Source: Candidatus Lloydbacteria bacterium RIFCSPHIGHO2_02_FULL_50_18
Lineage (GTDB): Bacteria > Patescibacteriota > Minisyncoccia > Phycocordibacterales > UBA6899
Direction of reading: 5' to 3'
NCBI GenBank assembly: GCA_001821395.1
Contig: MHLM01000003.1
Span: forward strand, 46,151-110,150
Length of the DNA: 64,000 nt
In this document: positions 227-8,372 of the stretch, piece after piece
How the letters are laid out: the number at the start of each line of letters is the position of its first letter
How positions within the stretch are numbered: the stretch's first letter is position 1
Program-made: the position numbers and the translations under genes
Notes under the pieces: generated by a model
Database searches by the model: none
Told to the model about the DNA's origin: nothing
Seen by the model: the letters and a program-made list of their open reading frames with translations, nothing else

Positions 227-1030
227 ATGAACGATCTCGACTATATCAAAAAACTTCCATTGGCATACCTGAAATACCTTCCGCGCATCACCGGTCACGC
301 ACTTGTCCTTGGGGGTAGTGGTGGGATCGGCAGTGAGATCGTGCCCGCTCTTGTCGCATACGGTGCAAGTGCGGTCTCTGTCGCGTATGGTCGGAATAAA
401 GCGGCTGCAGAAGCATTGCAGAAAGAATTGCGCGCGGCAAGGGTCACATGTTACATCGGCGCAGTCGATCCGCTTGATGAGAAGAGCTTCAGCGCATTTC
501 TTGACGATGCCGTCCGCGCAGTCGGTGAGGAGATCAGTGTTGCAGTCAATTCCATCGGCTTTTCGCCGAATACTCCGCTTGAAGAACAGACACTTGAAGA
601 ACGGCGGAAAGTGTTCGACGTGAATGTCCATGGCACCGCACTTACATCGCGCTTGATCTTGGCGCGAATGAAGGAAAAGGGTATCGGAGCAAAAGGCTCG
701 CTTGTCCTCATTACGTCGTCGAACGGTATCAATTCGCAGGCATCGTATTCATCGCACTACGATGAGTCGAAGGCGGCACTCATTCCGATGATCAAGAACC
801 TTGCGGAGTTTTATGCGCCGATCCGCGTGAACGGAGTTGCTCCTGGTTGGGTAGAGACTGCAATGAATGACACACTTCCACCTGGAGAGCGCGAAAAGGA
901 AACGGCAAAGATATTCCTCAATCGTTATGCCGATCCCGCCGAGGTCGCCTCATTCGTCGCGTTCATCTCAAGTTCCGGTGGAACGTTCATCAATAATGAA
1001 AATTACAAGATCGACGGCGGTACGCGCTGA
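227..1030 (+). CDS. short-chain dehydrogenase/reductase (SDR) family oxidoreductase
   Basis: 267 aa. N-terminal Rossmann glycine motif (LVLGGSGGIGSEI). SDR-like length and central S...YxxxK-type region. Confidence 0.7.
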   Translation: MNDLDYIKKLPLAYLKYLPRITGHALVLGGSGGIGSEIVPALVAYGASAVSVAYGRNKAAAEALQKELRAARVTCYIGAVDPLDEKSFSAFLDDAVRAVGEEISVAVNSIGFSPNTPLEEQTLEERRKVFDVNVHGTALTSRLILARMKEKGIGAKGSLVLITSSNGINSQASYSSHYDESKAALIPMIKNLAEFYAPIRVNGVAPGWVETAMNDTLPPGEREKETAKIFLNRYADPAEVASFVAFISSSGGTFINNENYKIDGGTR

Positions 1031-1041
1031 TCGATATATTG

Positions 1042-1066
1042 AAAGCCCTCTTCGGAGGGCTTTTTT
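1042..1066 (+). terminator. Rho-independent terminator after SDR gene
   Basis: GC hairpin gccctc-ttcg-gagggc followed by TTTTTT. Confidence 0.8.
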
Positions 1067-1091
1067 GTGACCCTCGTGCCACTTGCATTTT

Positions 1092-1487
1092 TTATAGGGT
1101 TTGGATAATGTTGGTGAATTTTTGTCCGAAGGTTCTCATCTCGATCAGCCTGTGCTCGTCCATCAAGTCGACGATCGCCCCAAGGTCGCCAGCATTTCTG
1201 CTTAAGCGATCCGGGTGCCACGCAAGGATGGCGTTAAACTTGCCCGCCTTGAGGTCATTAATCAGCTCATTGAAGACAGGGCGTTGCCCGGTGCTTTTTG
1301 CCGAGTGTGATTCACGCTTGATGTCGACCACATCAAGCCCCTCCAGTTGTGCCAACTGGAGCATCTCTTTGGCTTGGGAATCGATGGAAAGGGCTTGTTG
1401 TTCGTCCGATTCCGTCGACCTTCTAGCGTATAAACAGTATTTAATTTTTGGCTCGTCAGAGCCCTCTAGCGGGTTTGTATTTTTCAT
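1092..1487 (-). pseudogene. serine recombinase/resolvase N-terminal catalytic domain fragment; C-terminal helix E and DNA-binding domain absent
   Basis: YARRSTESDEQ active-site serine motif and DRLSRN motif. ORF stops after about 130 aa, where the E-helix would begin. No SD. Confidence 0.55.
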
Positions 1488-1551
1488 ACACCACAATGAA
1501 TGACAGAACCCTCCCAGAGAGTCCAGGAAGGGTAGAATAGGTAAAAACAAA

Positions 1552-1581
1552 AGCCACCCGATGAGGGTGGCCTTGTTTTTT
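1552..1581. terminator. bidirectional intrinsic terminator
   Basis: gccaccc-gatgag-ggtggc hairpin with T-runs on both strands. Confidence 0.6.
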
Positions 1582-1589
1582 GTGAGAAA

Positions 1590-2783
1590 TTACAGTCCTC
1601 GTTCAAGTACTGCAATACGCGCAATGTTGTTGCAGAGTTTCCATGTTGCCTGGTCTTTACCAAGCTTGGTTGGATTTCGCATCTCTTTCGCTTGCTCACC
1701 GACAGTTTTTGCCAGCTCATCGGCAAGCGAGCGAAAAACCTTTATTGGGTCGTCCTTCCAGATCGCCTTATCTCCCTCAACTTTCACGAGATTGCGGAAT
1801 GCCGCTAGTACGGGATAGATGAAAGCACTTGGTATTCTATAGTTCGCCTCACTTGAGTTGAAGATAAGTTCTTCATTAGCCATTTTGGGGCGGTTATTGA
1901 TCTGTATCACTCCAGTTAAGGCGCCAAATTTCCCACCGGCAGCTTTATTGTAAGCCTCAGGAAGTTCTCTGTAGATCGTGTCACGTAATTCGAGAATTCT
2001 TGGAATGAGCGGGACATACTTCATCAGGGTGGCTCGATAATTTTTGAAGTGTTCGATCACGTTTGATTTCTGCGAATATGCCATTATTGGATGATGTTCT
2101 TGGTCAAAATGATCGACATCGAAACATACGAGATAGGAAAGAATCTCCTTGATGTCCACATCCTTTGCTTCACCCGTTTTTTCGTCAATCTCATATTCTT
2201 TGTAGGCAATTCGATTTGCATATGGCTTGTCTTTGACTACCTGCTTGATCTCTTCAAAATGCTGATTCAGCTCCTCAAGGCTTTCGGACTTTACTTGAGC
2301 GGAGGTATTACGCGCGAGCACGATCTCAACTGCGTCATCTAGATTTTCAATCCCTTCAATAATTTCGATGCGAACACAGGCATTGATATCCTTTAACTCA
2401 TCTGGATTTGCACTATGGACGAAGTTTTGCAGAACACGGTATGTATGCCCGCCATCCAGTAGGCCGTGACGAGTTGAATCAACTAATTCAAGACTCACCT
2501 CGCCTGTCTTGTTGTCGTATTCGGCCTTGTCAACAAGCAAGGTAATACCGCGATTGCGGAAAAGAAATTGGTCAGGATTGTTTTCGAGTGATTTCTGAAT
2601 CTTCTTGCTGACCCCAGAAGTGATCTTGGGGTCACGCGGATTAATTTTTCGCCACTCCTCTACTTCAGCGGGTAAGTTAACGATGTTTGCTACTGCGATA
2701 TATGATCGGGCCACTGTTTCGTCATGTGGACTCTCGATTCTTCTGAAAGATGCAACTGGAAATTTAATAATTGTGCTTTTCAT
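1590..2783 (-). CDS. defense-island protein, possibly AIPR (abortive-infection phage-resistance) family; contains a DGGH(T) ParB/DGQHR-like motif
   Basis: About 397 aa ORF adjacent to and divergent from the R-M genes. Motif LLDGGHTYRVL. Family call is tentative; no search possible. Confidence 0.4.
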   Translation of the reverse strand: MKSTIIKFPVASFRRIESPHDETVARSYIAVANIVNLPAEVEEWRKINPRDPKITSGVSKKIQKSLENNPDQFLFRNRGITLLVDKAEYDNKTGEVSLELVDSTRHGLLDGGHTYRVLQNFVHSANPDELKDINACVRIEIIEGIENLDDAVEIVLARNTSAQVKSESLEELNQHFEEIKQVVKDKPYANRIAYKEYEIDEKTGEAKDVDIKEILSYLVCFDVDHFDQEHHPIMAYSQKSNVIEHFKNYRATLMKYVPLIPRILELRDTIYRELPEAYNKAAGGKFGALTGVIQINNRPKMANEELIFNSSEANYRIPSAFIYPVLAAFRNLVKVEGDKAIWKDDPIKVFRSLADELAKTVGEQAKEMRNPTKLGKDQATWKLCNNIARIAVLERGL

Positions 2784-3087
2784 ACTGTGTATGGCTAAGC
2801 GAATAAATGGGCAAAATAAAAACATGCCCGGTGCGCATGCTTAGCAGTCGTCTATGAAAAATATTCATTAGGCTGAGCTAAATGTTGGTCGAGATCTCTC
2901 TACGGCCCTCCACAGCTTTCACTACTGGAGTCAGTGTGCGTACATCACTGATTTCATTAGCCTACACCCGTAGCTGGGCTGACGTCAATGAATAACCAAA
3001 CATCCTCTAGAGAGCCAAGAATAAAGGGCAAAAAGCCCATAATTGTCCCCATTTTTCTTAATTTTTTCCTACTTAATTTGATCCGAT

Positions 3088-3098
3088 GTTGCTATAAT
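3088..3098 (+). promoter_or_regulatory. extended -10 promoter element (TGcTATAAT) for methyltransferase gene, short leader
   Basis: tgcTATAAT ends 17 nt upstream of the ATG at 3116. No SD. Confidence 0.4.
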
Positions 3099-3115
3099 TA
3101 GGATACGATTTTTGC

Positions 3116-5041
3116 ATGAGGCTTCTTGAACAACACAAAATTGCTCCCCGCATTTCTGCTTCTCAGGAGAGTGTTTTTGTCACTCGACCACTTCTTAAGT
3201 GGGCGGGAGGGAAAACACAACTGCTTGATGAGCTTCTTCCTAAACTTCCAGATGAGTATGGTCGGTTTATAGAACCGTTCATTGGTGGTGGAGCTTTATT
3301 TTTCAAAGTTAAGCCCAGAAACGGAATAATCGCAGACAGTAACCCGGAACTAGTAAACATGTATCGCTCAGTTGCGGAGAATGTTACTGCTGTCATTGAG
3401 CACCTCACGCGCTATAAGAATACGGAAGAGATGTTTTATAAAGTGCGGGCGCAAGACTGGGGTAATCTTTCTCCAGAGGAAGCAGCCGCACGTACCATCT
3501 ATCTGAATCGCACCTGCTTTAATGGGCTGTATCGAGTCAATAAAAAAGGACAATTCAACGTACCGTATGGTAGATATACGAATCCGCGAATAGTCGACGT
3601 AGAAGGATTAATATCTGCATCTCAGCTTTTGCAGAATACCAAAATAATCTGTGGTGACTACAAGAGCGTGTTGCGCGAAGAAGCACGTGCTGGTGATTTT
3701 ATCTTTCTTGATCCTCCCTATTTGCCCATATCAGAATATGCAGACTTCAAGAGATACACCAAGGAGCAATTTTATGAAGAGGACCACGTGGAACTAGCAG
3801 AAGAAGTACGACGCCTTCATGACTTGGGATGTCACGTTGTTTTAACAAACTCGAATCATCCGTTGGTGCATGAGCTGTATCAAGGATTTGAGATAGAGGT
3901 AATTCAATCAAGGCGCAACATCAGTTCAAATGCAAAGAGTAGAACAGGGGAGGACGTAATTGTCACAGCAATACCTAGGCACCGCTTCAATAAGAGACTC
4001 ATAATTACTCCACAACCTGAACAATTACTGAAGTACCCATCAACAAGATACATGGGATCGAAGAATAAATTGCTAGATCAAATCTGGGCAGTTGCTTCAC
4101 AGTTTAATTTTGATACTGCTGTGGACCTATTTTCGGGATCCGGCATAGTTGGCTATATGTTTAAGGCGCATGGCAAAGAAGTGCTATCAAATGACTATAT
4201 GACGATGTCTGCCGTTTTTGCAAAGGCCATGGTGGAGAATAATAATGTTCGTCTCACGGAGAAAGATATAAATGCACTACTCAAGTCACATCGTGCGGTC
4301 GATCGTTTTGTCCAAGAAACTTTCGGAGGATTGTATTTTACCGACGAAGAAAACAAGCTCATTGATATCGTCAGGTCTAATGTAAAAAAACTGAAAAACC
4401 CGCACAAGAGAGCAATAGCAATGTCTGCGTTGATACGAGCGTGTGTCAAAAAAAGGCCACGAGGTATTTTTACTTATGTTGGACACAGGTATGATGACGG
4501 ACGCCGTGATCTCTCCATCTCTTTTGAGCAACAGTTCGTTGAGGCAATACAGGCCATCAATGCTTCAATCTTCGACAACGGAAAGAAGAACAAGGCACGA
4601 CAGGGTGATGCCATGAGCATTAATACCGGACATCCTGGCTTGGTTTACATTGATCCTCCATACTTTAGTCCATTTTCTGACAATGAATATGTGCGCCGGT
4701 ATCATTTTGTTGAGGGGTTGGCCCGCGATTGGAAGGGTGTTGAAATTCAAGAGCACACACTAACAAAGAAGTTTAAAAACTACCCCACTCCCTTTTCATC
4801 AAGAAATGGTGCATATGATGCTTTTGATCTTCTATTCAAGCGTTTTCGCAATAGTATTTTAATCGTTTCGTATTCTTCAAACAGCCTCCCCACGCTTGAT
4901 GAGATGGTTGCACTTATGGCAAAACATAAGCGACATGTCGAAGTCATACCCGTTGATTATAAATATTCGATCGGCAACCAAGGGCATAAAGTTAACGATA
5001 ACCGGAATAACGTTAAAGAATACTTGTTTGTTGGATACTAA
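3116..5041 (+). CDS. Type IIS-style fused two-domain N6-adenine DNA methyltransferase (M.FokI-like; two Dam/D12-class domains)
   Basis: 641 aa. Domain 1: LLKWAGGKTQLLDEL, FIGGGALFF, LDPPY. Domain 2: YMGSKNKLL, FSGSGIVGY, IDPPYFSP. The architecture and the roughly 640-aa length are those of M.FokI. Confidence 0.85.
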   Translation: MRLLEQHKIAPRISASQESVFVTRPLLKWAGGKTQLLDELLPKLPDEYGRFIEPFIGGGALFFKVKPRNGIIADSNPELVNMYRSVAENVTAVIEHLTRYKNTEEMFYKVRAQDWGNLSPEEAAARTIYLNRTCFNGLYRVNKKGQFNVPYGRYTNPRIVDVEGLISASQLLQNTKIICGDYKSVLREEARAGDFIFLDPPYLPISEYADFKRYTKEQFYEEDHVELAEEVRRLHDLGCHVVLTNSNHPLVHELYQGFEIEVIQSRRNISSNAKSRTGEDVIVTAIPRHRFNKRLIITPQPEQLLKYPSTRYMGSKNKLLDQIWAVASQFNFDTAVDLFSGSGIVGYMFKAHGKEVLSNDYMTMSAVFAKAMVENNNVRLTEKDINALLKSHRAVDRFVQETFGGLYFTDEENKLIDIVRSNVKKLKNPHKRAIAMSALIRACVKKRPRGIFTYVGHRYDDGRRDLSISFEQQFVEAIQAINASIFDNGKKNKARQGDAMSINTGHPGLVYIDPPYFSPFSDNEYVRRYHFVEGLARDWKGVEIQEHTLTKKFKNYPTPFSSRNGAYDAFDLLFKRFRNSILIVSYSSNSLPTLDEMVALMAKHKRHVEVIPVDYKYSIGNQGHKVNDNRNNVKEYLFVGY

Positions 5042-5061
5042 AGATATAGGATTGTGAAATC

Positions 5062-6810
5062 ATGTCAGGAGTATGGAATATAGGAAATACCACAGTTCGC
5101 AACCCCAAAAGAATTGAAATGGGACTACGCCTACTCCACGAAGGTGGATTCTTGGGCAACCTTGAGGGAGAGGAAAATGAAATTAAACTTACCGACGCAC
5201 TGGTGCAGTCTGGGGTTGTTGATTCCGCCTCTAAAGAAAAGAGTTCTGCTTGGCTGGGTCGCAAGTGGAGAAATGTGATGGTGAAGCTGGGCTTTATTAC
5301 CGACAAGGCATATCGAATAGAAGGAAAAGCTGTATCTCACAGTAAAATATTCACAGAAATAGGTGCGGATATGAATGCTTACTCTCTTACTCCCGCAGGG
5401 GAGAGGTTGGTAATGGCAAAGACGCTTGGAGAAGTGCAAGATGTTTTCTTGCAACAACTGTATCGACACCAATTGCCAAATCCTCTTGAAAAGAAAGTTC
5501 CCAAAGACGCACCACCCATGCGACCCTTTGTGCTCCTGCTTGATGTCCTGCTTAGCTTGCAGAACGACGATGCTGGGATTTCCCAGACGGAAACAGCAAT
5601 ATTTATACAAGAAATACAAAGCCACACTCAGGACACGGGAGTAAAGATAGCCATGAAGATTATTGCTTACAGAAAAAAGAGAGGAATGTTGTCTTCAAGG
5701 AGGGAAAAACTAATCTTTGACAAGGAACTTTTGAGCGAAGTTTCAACAAGGGCGAAGGTCAAACTACTGACTCCTCGTGACTATGCCGATACCACAATTA
5801 GATATTTTTCCATGACAGGGCTTTTTGAAGTTCATGGATCCCGGATGTGTATCAAAGCTGAAAAAAGAAACGTTGCAGAGGAATTAGTAAAGAGCTCACA
5901 AGATCTTTTTGTAATTACTGACCCCGTTCAGTATCTCAAGGAGTTTTATGTTGGAACTGGGTTGCCAACCGATAACACGAGGGTGTTAAACGAGGAGCTT
6001 GCTGCGCTCAAAGAAATAGCACATGAATTAAAAATCAAAACCAAGGCTACGGGAGAAAAAGATCCCAACAGGTTAAAGGCGGAAAAATATAAACTTGAAG
6101 AAGATATTTTGTTTGCCAAAGAGGAGCAATTTGCACTTTTGCAACAGAATCCTGATCAGGTTGAAGACATAATCTCGTCCCTGTCTAAGATAGCTACAAG
6201 TGATCGCGACTTTTTGCGCAGCCTCGTGGATCTCCCCGCTTATCTAGAGTGGATTGTTTGGAGAGGATTTTTGTCTGTTGATCATATTACGGTCCCAACA
6301 AAAGAAACACGTGGCTTTCCTGTTGATTCCGATTTGCAGCCAAGATATCCTGCCCCAGGGGGTAGACCGGATATGTCCTTTGAGTTTTTGGACTACAGTC
6401 TTGTTGTCGAAGTGACATTAACCACCTCCACTCGACAATATATTGCCGAGTGTGAGCCAGTAAGAAGACATGTTGCCAACGGAAAAGGTGGAAAGGAGAC
6501 ACTCGGAATTTTTATTGCTCCCACCCTCGACAATAACTTTCTCCATAAAGTGCGAGAGCACTTCCGTGGTGACGAGCTAATAATGCTAAAGATTTTACCG
6601 CTCACGATTTCACATTTTGTTCGCTTGCTTGAGGTACACAAGTCCACATCCATTACGCCCGACGACGTTAAGGATCTAATCTTGAGGGTCAATAGTAGTG
6701 AATCCTCAAATGGTCTTGAGTGGAAGAAGCATATTGAGCAGACTTTTGATGAATGGTTACAAGAACATGGAGCAGTCGATGCTGTGAGAGGAAAGGTCGT
6801 GGCGGCGTAG
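5062..6810 (+). CDS. Type IIS restriction endonuclease, FokI-like (N-terminal recognition region, C-terminal PD-(D/E)xK cleavage domain)
   Basis: 582 aa (FokI is 587 aa). C-terminus GGRPDMSFEFLDYSLVVEVT aligns by eye to FokI RKPDGAIY...DYGVIVDTK. The downstream AECEPVRRHV segment matches ADEMQRYVEE. It sits immediately after the two-domain methyltransferase. Confidence 0.6.
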   Translation: MSGVWNIGNTTVRNPKRIEMGLRLLHEGGFLGNLEGEENEIKLTDALVQSGVVDSASKEKSSAWLGRKWRNVMVKLGFITDKAYRIEGKAVSHSKIFTEIGADMNAYSLTPAGERLVMAKTLGEVQDVFLQQLYRHQLPNPLEKKVPKDAPPMRPFVLLLDVLLSLQNDDAGISQTETAIFIQEIQSHTQDTGVKIAMKIIAYRKKRGMLSSRREKLIFDKELLSEVSTRAKVKLLTPRDYADTTIRYFSMTGLFEVHGSRMCIKAEKRNVAEELVKSSQDLFVITDPVQYLKEFYVGTGLPTDNTRVLNEELAALKEIAHELKIKTKATGEKDPNRLKAEKYKLEEDILFAKEEQFALLQQNPDQVEDIISSLSKIATSDRDFLRSLVDLPAYLEWIVWRGFLSVDHITVPTKETRGFPVDSDLQPRYPAPGGRPDMSFEFLDYSLVVEVTLTTSTRQYIAECEPVRRHVANGKGGKETLGIFIAPTLDNNFLHKVREHFRGDELIMLKILPLTISHFVRLLEVHKSTSITPDDVKDLILRVNSSESSNGLEWKKHIEQTFDEWLQEHGAVDAVRGKVVAA

Positions 6811-6818
6811 ATTAAAAA

Positions 6819-6846
6819 ACAGACCACCCATTAATGGGCGGTCTGC
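6819..6846 (+). terminator. terminator after R-M operon
   Basis: cagaccaccca-ttaa-tgggcggtctg hairpin with one mismatch. T-run slightly downstream. Confidence 0.5.
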
Positions 6847-6871
6847 TCTGCTCCGGTTTTTGTGGAAATAA

Positions 6872-7147
6872 CTACAATCCACGCTCAAGAACGGCAATGC
6901 GAGCACGCTTTCAGACAATGGGTTCGGCCTACGTGTTTTTGATGGCGCGGTAGAAATTCACGATTCGACGATCGCGGGTAACGAAACGGGCATAATGAAT
7001 ACAGATATTGATATGGTGGTTGACGCCACAAGGAATTATTGGGGAGACGCTGACGGGCCGACGCTTTCGGGTGAAGCAGCTGATGGTGACAGCATCTCGG
7101 AAAATGTTTTGACCGAAGGTTTCCTCGTCGCTCCGCCGATGATCTAA
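6872..7147 (+). pseudogene. 3' remnant of a parallel beta-helix (PbH1) repeat protein gene, no start codon
   Basis: Open frame reads ...NGNASTLSDNGFGLRVFDGAVEIHDSTIAGNETGIMNTDIDMVVDATRNYWGDADG...PPMI*. A stop codon lies just upstream and no upstream start is present. Confidence 0.45.
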
Positions 7148-7272
7148 GAAGGGTCGATTACCGATGTTTTGTCCAAGCGCAAGACCACTGGACGGCATCA
7201 CCTATACCGGTAGTCCTTGTCATGAAATTGCCCATGTAAGCATCAAAGAATCCTTCGGTGTGTTAACATGAA

Positions 7273-7521
7273 GTGATGAAATCAAAAGGATGGGGACTTG
7301 AGTTGATCGGGGCGTATGGAATGGTGATGATACTCGGAGCGTATTTTTTGACGTCTTTTAATTATGTTCTTGCCGATAATCTCTGGTATCAATTGATGAA
7401 TCTTACGGGTGGTATGGCTTTTGTGTACTACACGCTCACGAAAAAGGCGTGGGCGTCCCTCGGGGTCAACTCGGTGTGGGTCATCATCGCCGCCGTCAGT
7501 CTCTGGAAGATGTTCATGTAG
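7273..7521 (+). CDS. small hydrophobic membrane protein, unknown function
   Basis: 82 aa with 2-3 predicted TM helices. The antisense ORF looks like noise. Confidence 0.45.
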   Translation: MMKSKGWGLELIGAYGMVMILGAYFLTSFNYVLADNLWYQLMNLTGGMAFVYYTLTKKAWASLGVNSVWVIIAAVSLWKMFM

Positions 7522-7595
7522 CCAAGCGCTCGGCATTTAGGTTGCAATGAACCGGATACCCTACTTGAGGACTTGAGACGTAGCACAAAATTTTA

Positions 7596-7635
7596 AAAGT
7601 ACTATTTATTTGCTATAGCAAATAAATAGTACTTT
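7596..7635. repeat. perfect 40-bp palindrome (arms AAAGTACTATTTA... / ...TAAATAGTACTTT)
   Basis: aaagtactatttatttgcta|tagcaaataaatagtacttt read directly. Lies between convergent genes, 90 bp past the stop of the PaaX-like gene. Confidence 0.9.
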
Positions 7636-7724
7636 CACTTTTGGAGATGAGCACGGGAAGGGGGAGGACGTAATGCTCTTGGTTTGTGGTTGTCGGAGGA
7701 CTGCATCTGCTGTCGTGGGTAGAG

Positions 7725-8372
7725 TTATTGTAAATGAAAGTGGCGGATGAGTTCCGGTGCATTATCGATATCGGTTGCCGTCATAAAGCGGATGTGTCGC
7801 CGGGCATTGTAGAATTCCATTATGTATTCGATCTCGCTTGCGCAAGGGTAGGGGTGCACGAAGACTGATTTTTGAAACTCAGAGAATCCCATGTTCTTGA
7901 AATGCATGCGGAGCGCATCGCGAACGCCTTTCAGATTTTCCGGAACATCAAACATCACCACTCGCCATTTTTTGTCCCAATAAGGAGGCATTTTGATGAC
8001 CAAGTTATCAAGATCATAACGGAGTGCCACTTCCTTACCCTCCTTTGACAGGACAAGAGTGAATGTGCCGTCCTTATTGCTTTTTGTGCTTACGAGCTTG
8101 GACTTATAGAGATTTTGGATCGCCTGATTGAGCGCCCTACGGTTGATGGCGTTCCACTCTGCCTTCATTGCCCTCGCGACACGAAAGTACTGTTTCGGTG
8201 ATCGTGAGAGCCCGAGTGCCAATCCGCCGAGTAAGAGGAGCAGCACCTTTTGTTGCACATGTCCCACTCGTCTCTTTGAAACGTCGCTCGCTGTACCCAC
8301 CCCCTTCTTTATCTCTGTCTTTCGCATGGTGATTTGTTTGGATATTTTTGTCACACCATTCAATCTTTTCAT
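7725..8372 (-). CDS. PaaX-like transcriptional regulator (N-terminal winged HTH + central Cas2-like domain), short C-terminus
   Basis: 215 aa. Cas2/VapD-like pattern WRVVMFDVPENLKGVRDALRMHFKNMGFSEFQKSVF. Basic helical N-terminus. Confidence 0.5.
   Translation of the reverse strand: MKRLNGVTKISKQITMRKTEIKKGVGTASDVSKRRVGHVQQKVLLLLLGGLALGLSRSPKQYFRVARAMKAEWNAINRRALNQAIQNLYKSKLVSTKSNKDGTFTLVLSKEGKEVALRYDLDNLVIKMPPYWDKKWRVVMFDVPENLKGVRDALRMHFKNMGFSEFQKSVFVHPYPCASEIEYIMEFYNARRHIRFMTATDIDNAPELIRHFHLQ

What the first reader, a model, noticed from the sequence alone, without database searches (positions are those of the whole stretch)
3116..6810. FokI-like Type IIS system: two-domain Dam-like methyltransferase plus endonuclease whose catalytic Lys position appears to be Thr
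The 641-aa methyltransferase has two complete D12-class modules (each with an FxGxG motif and DPPY), the hallmark of M.FokI-type enzymes that methylate the two strands of an asymmetric site separately. The 582-aa downstream protein aligns by eye with the FokI cleavage domain (RPD...DYSLVVEVT vs KPD...DYGVIVDTK; AECEPVRRHV vs ADEMQRYVEE). At the position of FokI Lys469 the sequence shows Thr (VEVT), so the PD-(D/E)xK triad would be PD-E-x-T. This is either an unusual active-site variant, or the alignment is shifted.
Basis: partly seen in the sequence, partly recalled or inferred. Interest (0 to 1): 0.5.

Follow-up and report, generated by a model that had tools for sequence, protein, structure and literature searches.

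The report
AlwI-family Type IIS restriction-modification cassette
This is an intact but ordinary bacterial restriction-modification gene pair of the well-known AlwI/BstNBI family, and the "missing" catalytic lysine (a threonine) is the normal, invariant state of that family, already visible in a solved crystal structure.

Summary
Both ORFs exist exactly as described. The 641-aa protein is a fusion of two D12-class adenine methyltransferases (FIGGG55/DPPY199 and FSGSG339/DPPY513). The 582-aa protein is not a FokI-family enzyme. It is a full-length AlwI-family (Pfam PF09491) Type IIS endonuclease, homologous end to end with the solved nickase Nt.BspD6I/N.BstNBI.

The E450-V-T452 motif is real and the alignment register is not shifted. 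However, it is invariant in 81/81 homologues (27-87% identity) and is also present in Nt.BspD6I (E469-V-T471), whose isolated C-terminal domain is an active nuclease. [quoted passage not shown]

The fused-methyltransferase-plus-endonuclease layout is the published AlwI architecture, and 76 of 80 related loci share it. The methyltransferase is 61% identical to that of an Acinetobacter lwoffii plasmid cassette. Its N-half keeps the E. coli Dam GATC-contact residues (one Tyr-to-Phe change), so GGATC is the most likely site, though this is unproven.

Verdict: new member of a known kind; low interest.

The parts
3116..5041 (+). Fused two-domain N6-adenine DNA methyltransferase gene (641 aa), M.AlwI-type
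   Evidence: ORF. Pfam PF02086 twice, 2.9e-88. PADLOC PDLC03261 MTase_II matched end to end, 10-641 of a 643-position model, 1135.6 bits. 61% identity over 621 aa to the methyltransferase of an A. lwoffii plasmid cassette.
3182..3970 (+). M N-terminal domain (aa 23-285): Dam/DpnM-like D12 module, with motif I FIGGG55 (3278-3292) and motif IV DPPY199 (3710-3721)
   Evidence: TIGR00571 dam 1.2e-84. DpnII M1 2dpm 6.8e-65 and E. coli Dam ~3e-40. EcoDam GATC-contact residues K9/Y119/N120/L122/R124/P134/R137/Y138 align to K28/F135/N136/L138/R140/P150/R153/Y154 (residue roles from PMC4417163).
4022..5038 (+). M C-terminal domain (aa 303-641): second, divergent D12 module, with motif I FSGSG339 (4130-4144) and motif IV DPPY513 (4652-4663)
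   Evidence: PF02086 3.4e-23 over 242 of 253 model positions when scanned alone. Only marginal similarity to the N-half. Resembles the N-terminal half of a FokI-linked methyltransferase at 24% identity, 1e-16.
5062..6810 (+). AlwI-family Type IIS restriction endonuclease gene (582 aa)
5062..5961 (+). Predicted DNA-recognition region of R (about aa 1-300; helical/winged-helix subdomains)
5962..6198 (+). Helical linker region of R (about aa 301-379)
   Evidence: The AF2 model has helices 306-322, 335-360 and 364-378. Assigned by analogy to the linker domain of Nt.BspD6I (PMC8533099). Boundaries are approximate (inference).
6199..6771 (+). PD-(D/E)XK cleavage domain of R (aa 380-570)
6247..6249 (+). 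Codon of E396, equivalent to Nt.BspD6I E418 (first-helix catalytic Glu)
   Evidence: Invariant 81/81. Aligns to BspD6I E418: chain residue 424 minus the 6-residue tag. E418A is catalytically deficient (PMC6261011; PDB 6qnz title).
6367..6372 (+). Codons of P436-D437, the 'PD' of the motif, equivalent to Nt.BspD6I D456
   Evidence: D437 invariant 81/81; P436 present in 54/81. D456A is catalytically deficient (PMC6261011; PDB 5lhc title).
6409..6417 (+). Codons of E450-V451-T452, the '(D/E)xK' position with Thr in place of Lys, equivalent to Nt.BspD6I E469-V470-T471
   Evidence: E 81/81, V 80/81, T 81/81, and identical in BspD6I. Lies at the end of strand 445-451 of the model. FokI-family homologues have invariant D-T-K here instead.
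6448..6471 (+). Codons of E463-C-E465-P-V-R-R469-H470 on the helix after beta3. These invariant residues are candidates for the displaced catalytic or DNA-contact functions.
   Evidence: E463, E465, V467, R469 and H470 are invariant 81/81 and conserved in BspD6I as E482, E484, V486, R488, H489. Their functional role is inference only.
6820..6863 (+). Terminator-like GC-rich hairpin plus T-run immediately after the R stop codon (end of the M-R operon)
   Evidence: Palindrome CAGACCACCCATTAATGGGCGGTCTG at 6820-6845. Terminator-like hit at 6836-6853 followed by CGGTTTTTGT. Sequence read. A consensus match only.

Best explanation
The region encodes a two-gene M->R operon of the AlwI type, i.e. a Type IIS restriction-modification system.

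The methyltransferase is two independent alpha-class (D12) N6-adenine methyltransferases joined in one chain. Each is inferred to methylate the adenine on one strand of an asymmetric site.

[quoted passage not shown] That domain should cut a few bases to one side of the unmethylated site. With no small-subunit gene present, cutting probably follows transient dimerisation of two cleavage domains, as reported for AlwI and MlyI.

The catalytic centre is the family-typical E396 ... P-D437 ... E450-V-T452 plus residues on the following helix (E463, E465, R469, H470). Thr452 is the normal occupant of the 'Lys' position in this family, and the Lys role is supplied from elsewhere in the fold.

The most likely recognition site is GGATC/GATCC (AlwI-like). 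I put that at about 0.55.

Shown here: gene structure, family membership, fold, conservation of the motif, conserved gene order. Inferred: activity, dimerisation, cleavage offset, recognition sequence. The confidence given (0.9) is for the family and system assignment and for the Thr being the family norm, not for the recognition site.

For: Motif: E396, D437, E450, T452, E463, E465, R469, H470 and K478 are invariant in 81 homologues at 27-87% identity and present in BspD6I. E396 and D437 map onto E418 and D456, whose Ala mutants are inactive. The EVT-bearing Nt.BspD6I C-domain alone is an active nickase when fused to TALE (PMC10940147). [quoted passage not shown]

Architecture: the same review describes AlwI as an REase (GGATC 4/5) plus two MTases joined in a single chain. 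PMC12898733 says AlwI-family REases are always associated with a fused adenine-MTase/Dam MTase. In 76 of 80 related loci both M halves lie directly upstream in the same order.

Specificity: the N-half is a Dam-family member that retains the EcoDam GATC-contact residues, with one Tyr-to-Phe change at Y119. The M protein is 61% identical over 621 aa to the M of an A. lwoffii plasmid AlwI-family cassette.

Operon: 20-nt gap between the genes, and a terminator-like hairpin after R.
Against: Nothing argues against family membership.

The specificity is weakly supported. GGATC/GATCC is only mildly depleted in the 64-kb window (obs/exp 0.80, rank 24 of 512 5-mers). R is only 30% identical to the A. 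lwoffii enzyme. I could not verify that this plasmid enzyme is the characterised AlwI. AlwI-family members with other sites are known: GAGTC for MlyI, PleI and BstNBI, and a family member discussed in connection with a SfaNI-like (GCATC) system in PMC9799307.

Whether it cuts both strands or only nicks cannot be decided from sequence. No coordinates were available, so I could not identify which residue substitutes for the Lys.
Confidence: 0.9

Rival explanations
1. It is a FokI-family Type IIS enzyme whose catalytic Lys469 equivalent has mutated to Thr, giving a novel PD-E-x-T active-site variant.
Confidence: 0.02
2. It is a natural site-specific nicking enzyme, like the isolated large subunit Nt.BstNBI/Nt.BspD6I. 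It would cut only one strand because its cleavage domain cannot homodimerise and no small subunit is encoded.
For: The closest solved homologue is a nickase. PADLOC also matches 'Type II nicking endonuclease' models: PDLC03394 at 9e-28 and PDLC03393 at 1.1e-16. No small-subunit-like ORF lies downstream, and there is no second cleavage domain anywhere in the window.
Against: The best PADLOC model is an ordinary REase_II (9.2e-65, nearly full length). Characterised family members without a small subunit (AlwI, MlyI) are homodimerising double-strand cutters (PMC3017599). Among 80 related loci, the dominant layout is the same M-R pair.
Confidence: 0.15
3. The endonuclease is an inactivated remnant (loss of the catalytic Lys), retained next to an orphan-like methyltransferase.
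For: A canonical Lys is absent at the (D/E)xK position. The neighbouring recombinase gene is truncated, so some local decay exists.
Against: The ORF is full length against Pfam, PADLOC and BspD6I. All family-invariant residues are intact. The same E-V-T is present in enzymatically active Nt.BspD6I. An identical protein is found on 15 metagenome contigs.
Confidence: 0.03
4. It is an AlwI-family system as described, but it recognises an asymmetric site other than GGATC: another GATC-containing or GGAT-related 5-6 bp site.
For: R recognition regions are only 27-37% identical to most homologues and 30% to the A. lwoffii enzyme. GGATC avoidance is weak. The family contains several specificities (PMC9799307).
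Against: The M protein is 61% identical across both domains, including the variable regions, to the A. lwoffii cassette. The Dam-type GATC contact residues are retained in the N-half. The review links this fused architecture specifically to GGATC/GATCC.
Confidence: 0.35

Closest known systems
AlwI R-M system (Acinetobacter lwoffii; REase GGATC 4/5 plus single-chain double methyltransferase)
   Same: Same Pfam family for R (PF09491). Same gene order and the same fusion of two adenine methyltransferases (PMC4081073). An A. lwoffii plasmid cassette has a 640-aa M that is 61% identical and a 573-aa R that is 30% identical, with the same GEVTLT and EGEPVRRH motifs.
   Different: R is highly diverged (30%). 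The A. lwoffii plasmid locus has an upstream HTH (controller-like) gene and a full recombinase gene, whereas the window has a divergent AIPR gene and a truncated resolvase. I could not verify that the plasmid enzyme is the characterised AlwI, nor the recognition site of the window enzyme.
Nt.BspD6I / N.BstNBI large subunit (GAGTC 4/-; PDB 2ewf)
   Different: About 22-25% identity. BspD6I works with a separate 186-aa small subunit and nicks on its own, and no small subunit is encoded here. BspD6I recognises GAGTC. The first ~100 residues do not align by sequence.
FokI (GGATG 9/13; PDB 1fok/2fok)
   Different: No detectable sequence or profile similarity. FokI-family homologues have invariant D-T-K, i.e. 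D467/T468/K469, where this family has invariant E-V-T. The spacing is PD-x12-E here versus PD-x16-D in FokI. HindIII is structurally as close as FokI.
M.FokI-type fused methyltransferase (represented here by the 647-aa M next to a FokI_cleav_dom gene, L087)
   Same: Two D12 modules in one chain, each with FxGxG and DPPY, serving an asymmetric Type IIS site.
   Different: Only 24-27% identity, and the homologous domains are in swapped order: the window's C-half matches its N-half, and the window's N-half matches its C-half. The architecture is therefore analogous rather than orthologous.
DpnM (M1.DpnII) / E. coli Dam (GATC)
   Same: The N-terminal half is a bona fide Dam-family domain (TIGR00571, 284 bits against a cutoff of 115; 2dpm 6.8e-65). 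The EcoDam base-contact residues are conserved, with one Tyr-to-Phe change.
   Different: It is fused to a second methyltransferase and linked to a Type IIS REase. By analogy with M.AlwI it is expected to read one extra flanking base, making it strand-specific (not tested).
BpuJI recognition domain (PDB 2vla/5hlt)
   Different: 11-13% identity. BpuJI has a different nuclease domain organisation and a different site.

Membership tests
[quoted passage not shown] | Match to the family HMM above the curated gathering score, covering the whole model | tested here: met
   224.3 bits against a cutoff of 23.1, E 4e-66, model positions 2-441 of 441, residues 75-522.
[quoted passage not shown] | Three-part fold of the solved member Nt.BspD6I (recognition domain, linker, cleavage domain) | tested here: met
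[quoted passage not shown] | Catalytic residues shown by mutagenesis in Nt.BspD6I (E418, D456) and the E-V-T strand motif | tested here: met
   E396, D437 and E450-V-T452 align to E418, D456 and E469-V-T471 (mutants in PMC6261011). Invariant in 81/81 homologues.
[quoted passage not shown] | Cleavage at a fixed short distance outside an asymmetric recognition site | not testable with these tools
   Requires enzyme assays or run-off sequencing of digests.
FokI family (Pfam PF09254 FokI_cleav_dom, with PF02981/PF16902 recognition subdomains) | Sequence or profile match to the FokI cleavage domain or recognition subdomains | tested here: not met
   No FokI Pfam family at E <= 0.1. hhalign probability 0.08-0.19% against the FokI sequence and a FokI-family profile.
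FokI family (Pfam PF09254 FokI_cleav_dom, with PF02981/PF16902 recognition subdomains) | Catalytic PD...D-T-K (D450, D467, K469) | tested here: not met
   FokI-family homologues have invariant D67/D84/T85/K86, i.e. D450/D467/T468/K469. The window protein has D437/E450/V451/T452.
FokI family (Pfam PF09254 FokI_cleav_dom, with PF02981/PF16902 recognition subdomains) | Closest structural neighbour is FokI | tested here: not met
D12-class (alpha-group) N6-adenine DNA methyltransferases (Pfam PF02086) | HMM match above the gathering score for each module separately | tested here: met
   N-half 218.5 bits and C-half 83.1 bits against a cutoff of 22, each covering at least 242 of 253 model positions.
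D12-class (alpha-group) N6-adenine DNA methyltransferases (Pfam PF02086) | AdoMet motif I (FxGxG) N-terminal to catalytic motif IV (DPPY), with the variable region between them | tested here: met
   FIGGG55 then DPPY199; FSGSG339 then DPPY513.
M.AlwI-type single-chain double methyltransferase of a Type IIS system | Two complete adenine-methyltransferase modules in one polypeptide, encoded immediately upstream of an AlwI-family REase | tested here: met
   (PDLC03261 matched end to end, 1135.6 bits). Same arrangement in 76 of 80 related loci and in the A. lwoffii plasmid. Literature description in PMC4081073 and PMC12898733.
M.AlwI-type single-chain double methyltransferase of a Type IIS system | The modules methylate GGATC and GATCC respectively | not testable with these tools
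   Indirect support only: Dam-type GATC contact residues in the N-half, 61% identity to the A. lwoffii M, and weak GGATC depletion of 0.80.
Dam family (TIGR00571), N-terminal module only | Score above the curated cutoff and conservation of the EcoDam GATC-contact residues | tested here: met
   284.2 bits against a cutoff of 114.85. K28/F135/N136/L138/R140/P150/R153/Y154 correspond to K9/Y119/N120/L122/R124/P134/R137/Y138 (roles from PMC4417163). It does not reach the E. coli Dam equivalog cutoff: NF008152 172 against 441.

The most novel reading that the evidence does not exclude
The least ordinary reading the evidence still allows is that this cassette is a recombinant of M and R modules with different histories. 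Its R is closest to a small clade (Ca. Saccharibacteria-type, 49-68% identity), while its M is closer to the methyltransferases of clades whose R is only about 30% identical. The diverged recognition region (27-37% identical to most relatives) might then specify a new asymmetric site, or the enzyme might be a stand-alone natural nickase. Separately, the identity of the residue that takes over the Lys role in the family-wide E-x-T active site remains unassigned here.
Probability: 0.12. Interest if true: 0.3.

Novelty: new member of a known kind. Interest (0 to 1): 0.1.

Why it matters
It matters little for biology in general. It adds one more uncharacterised, apparently intact AlwI-family Type IIS system from an uncultured organism, sitting in a small low-GC defence island.

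Its practical value is modest. AlwI/BstNBI-family cleavage domains are used as sequence-independent nickase modules, for example Nt.BspD6I(C) in mitochondrial base editors (PMC10940147), and Type IIS enzymes are cloning tools. A diverged member (30% identity to the A. lwoffii enzyme, 22-25% to BspD6I) could therefore be a source of variant domains or, if its site differs, a new specificity.

The main result of this check is negative. The 'Thr instead of catalytic Lys' is a known, family-wide feature, not a discovery.

Tried and rejected

2. Recognition-site avoidance in the 64-kb window. GGATC obs/exp is 0.80 (rank 24 of 512), GAGTC 0.87, GGATG 1.00, GATC 1.2. This is too weak to assign a site.

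3. Literature. The primary BspD6I structure paper (PMID 18835275), Higgins 2001 (PMC55753), Xu 2001 (PMC60812) and Besnier 2001 (PMC1084030) are not held. A residue-name search was unproductive. I therefore could not cite which residue replaces the Lys.

4. Small subunit. No 180-190-aa ORF lies downstream, and tblastn finds no second cleavage domain in the window.

5. Island boundaries. Direct and inverted repeat searches over 800-7800 gave only short chance-like matches, so no att-like repeats were identified.

6. Promoter scan. 10 sigma-70-like hits against 8.3 expected from shuffles, which is not informative. A TGCTATAAT extended -10-like element upstream of M was seen by eye only.

7. I considered K478 as the displaced Lys. 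It is invariant, but it sits at the start of beta4. In the restriction-endonuclease-like fold, beta4 runs parallel to beta3, so K478 should lie at the opposite end of the sheet from E450/T452. This is inference from topology, not from coordinates, and I left it open.
Full report
OBSERVATION. A GC-rich hairpin plus T-run follows directly after the second stop codon, at 6820-6863. The 641-aa protein has FIGGG55/DPPY199 and FSGSG339/DPPY513. Each half scanned alone matches Pfam PF02086 (D12-class N6-adenine methyltransferase) over nearly the whole model, at 1.7e-64 and 3.4e-23. The halves are barely similar to each other, so this is not a recent duplication. The 582-aa protein contains P436-D437, E450-V451-T452 and A462-ECEPVRRH470, as quoted. 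The sequence features are therefore real.

THE THR-FOR-LYS QUESTION. The PDB alignment places the window's PDMSF...LVVEVT...AECEPVRRH against BspD6I's PDMEI...VLGEVT...MESEPVTRH. I counted the alignment in the 610-residue tagged chain and subtracted the 6-residue tag (the native protein has 604 aa; PMC8533099). This gives the equivalences:
- E396 = E418
- D437 = D456
- E450-V-T452 = E469-V-T471
- E463 = E482 and E465 = E484
- R469 = R488 and H470 = H489

E418A and D456A are published catalytically deficient mutants (PMC6261011; PDB 6qnz and 5lhc titles), so the register is anchored by experiment.

In 81 homologues taken from genomes (27-87% identity by domain), E396, D437, E450, T452, E463, E465, R469, H470 and K478 are each 81/81 invariant. 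They are also invariant in the 35 closest database homologues. In the model, D437 begins strand 438-441 and E450 lies at the end of strand 445-451. These are preceded by helix 391-404, which carries E396, and followed by helix 457-472 and strand 479-486. This is the canonical alpha-beta-beta-beta-alpha-beta PD-(D/E)XK core, so T452 does occupy the 'K' position.

This state is both functional and already known. Nt.BspD6I is an active Mg2+-dependent nickase (PMC8533099). Its isolated C-terminal domain (residues 382-604) nicks DNA when fused to TALE arrays (PMC10940147). [quoted passage not shown] EcoRII; BspD6I)' (PMC4081073). The Thr is therefore neither an alignment artefact nor an unusual variant of this particular protein. 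It is the family norm.

HOW FOKI-LIKE IS IT? I verified my remembered FokI cleavage-domain sequence as identical to 1fok residues 381-576. hhalign of the AlwI-family alignment against it, either full length or C-domain only, and against a 15-member FokI-family profile, gave probabilities of 0.08-0.19%. The by-eye alignment therefore has no statistical support. FokI-family homologues keep invariant D450, D467, T468 and K469 (residue roles are established knowledge, and D450A is mentioned in PMC3017599).

THE METHYLTRANSFERASE AND THE LIKELY SITE. PADLOC model PDLC03261 (643 positions) matches residues 10-641 at 1135.6 bits, so this exact two-domain architecture is a catalogued Type II methyltransferase family. 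[quoted passage not shown] GATCC'. [quoted passage not shown] In 76 of 80 related genomic loci both halves lie directly upstream of the endonuclease gene in the same order. In three of the remaining four the contig ends inside the methyltransferase.

The N-half is a Dam-family domain (TIGR00571, 284 bits against a cutoff of 115; DpnM 6.8e-65). It retains the EcoDam residues that read GATC: K9, Y119 (Phe here), N120, L122, R124, P134, R137 and Y138 correspond to K28, F135, N136, L138, R140, P150, R153 and Y154 (roles from PMC4417163).

A plasmid of Acinetobacter lwoffii, the source species of AlwI (my knowledge), carries the cassette HTH - 640-aa 'Dam family' M - 573-aa AlwI-family R - recombinase. 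Its M is 61% identical to the window's M over 621 residues, and its R is 30% identical.

By contrast, a 647-aa double methyltransferase encoded next to a FokI_cleav_dom gene (L087) matches only at 24-27% identity and with the domains in swapped order. The 'M.FokI hallmark' is therefore an analogous architecture, not shared descent.

Site avoidance in the window is uninformative (GGATC obs/exp 0.80). I therefore rate GGATC/GATCC as the most likely site at about 0.55, not as established. AlwI-family enzymes with other specificities exist.

MECHANISM. Inferred except where stated.
- M and R are co-transcribed. What is shown is the 20-nt gap and a terminator-like hairpin after R.
- Each methyltransferase module methylates the adenine of one strand of the asymmetric site.
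- R binds unmethylated sites through its N-terminal region and cuts a few bases downstream with the E396/D437/E450 metal site. The residues are shown; the chemistry is by homology.
- No small-subunit gene is present. Double-strand cleavage would therefore need transient homodimerisation, as in AlwI and MlyI (PMC3017599). A nickase-only mode remains possible, at about 0.15.
- Which residue substitutes for the Lys is open. Q459, E463/E465, R469/H470 and K478 are all invariant, including in BspD6I.

CONTEXT. The cassette lies in a lower-GC stretch (0.41-0.46 over 1500-7000, against roughly 0.48-0.60 in most flanking windows). It sits beside a divergently oriented AIPR abortive-infection gene (1590..2825, -) and a truncated serine-recombinase fragment (1092..1550, -). 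The same block recurs on other contigs from the same organism. Relatives sit next to full-length serine recombinases. This looks like a small, formerly mobile defence island.

VERDICT. It needs re-filing to the AlwI/BstNBI family, where every feature noted is standard and documented. New member of a known kind; interest 0.1.

Noticed in passing
window 1590-2825 (- strand): A 411-aa AIPR (abortive infection phage resistance, PF10592, 8.4e-31) gene lies divergently upstream of the methyltransferase. It has a weak AbiU-like PADLOC hit (8e-5). Together with the R-M pair it forms a small defence island in a lower-GC stretch (0.41-0.46 over 1500-7000).
   Followed up: partly
window 1092-1550 (- strand): A truncated serine recombinase: 131-152 aa, covering only Resolvase model positions 3-92 of 145, with no DNA-binding domain. 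It is probably the remnant of the element that delivered the island. Relatives of the cassette sit next to full-length serine recombinases (L088 6734-8233; L091 6225-6869). No flanking att-like repeats were found.
   Followed up: partly
Homologues P0020, P0025, P0028, P0029, P0030, P0032 (not in the window): A subgroup of close AlwI-family endonucleases (38-41% identical, about 740-750 aa) carries an extra C-terminal Peptidase_S24 (LexA/UmuD-like, PF00717) domain after the cleavage domain. One is from a Ca. Omnitrophota MAG. I am not aware of a characterised restriction enzyme with this fusion.
   Followed up: no
Loci L007-L090 compared with window 3116-6810: Across 72 complete related loci, identity of M to the window's M is anti-correlated with identity of R to the window's R (Spearman about -0.4, p about 3e-4; the loci are not phylogenetically independent). 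The two M halves track each other (rho 0.90). Examples: L007 has R 49-63% and M 42-46%, while L077 and L085 have R about 30-39% and M about 72%. This suggests M and R modules have partly separate histories (module exchange) or very different rates between clades.
   Followed up: partly
L091 1783-2034 (A. lwoffii plasmid) versus window 2826-3115: The A. lwoffii cassette has a small HTH (controller-like) gene overlapping the start of M. The window's system has no such ORF in the 290-nt region upstream of M, so its expression timing must be controlled differently. The upstream region contains one GATCC (a GGATC site) close to a TGCTATAAT extended -10-like element, around 3076-3098. One site in that length is expected by chance.
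   Followed up: no
window 7725-8372 (- strand): A 215-aa protein with a PaaX_M (Cas2-like) central domain (7.3e-20) and weak Cas2 hits lies just downstream of the island. There is no CRISPR context in the part of the window I examined.
   Followed up: no
window 7596-7635: A perfect 40-nt palindrome (AAAGTACTATTTATTTGCTA / TAGCAAATAAATAGTACTTT, arms abutting) lies between the CBU_0592-like ORF and the PaaX_M gene. It may be an operator or a bidirectional terminator.
   Followed up: no
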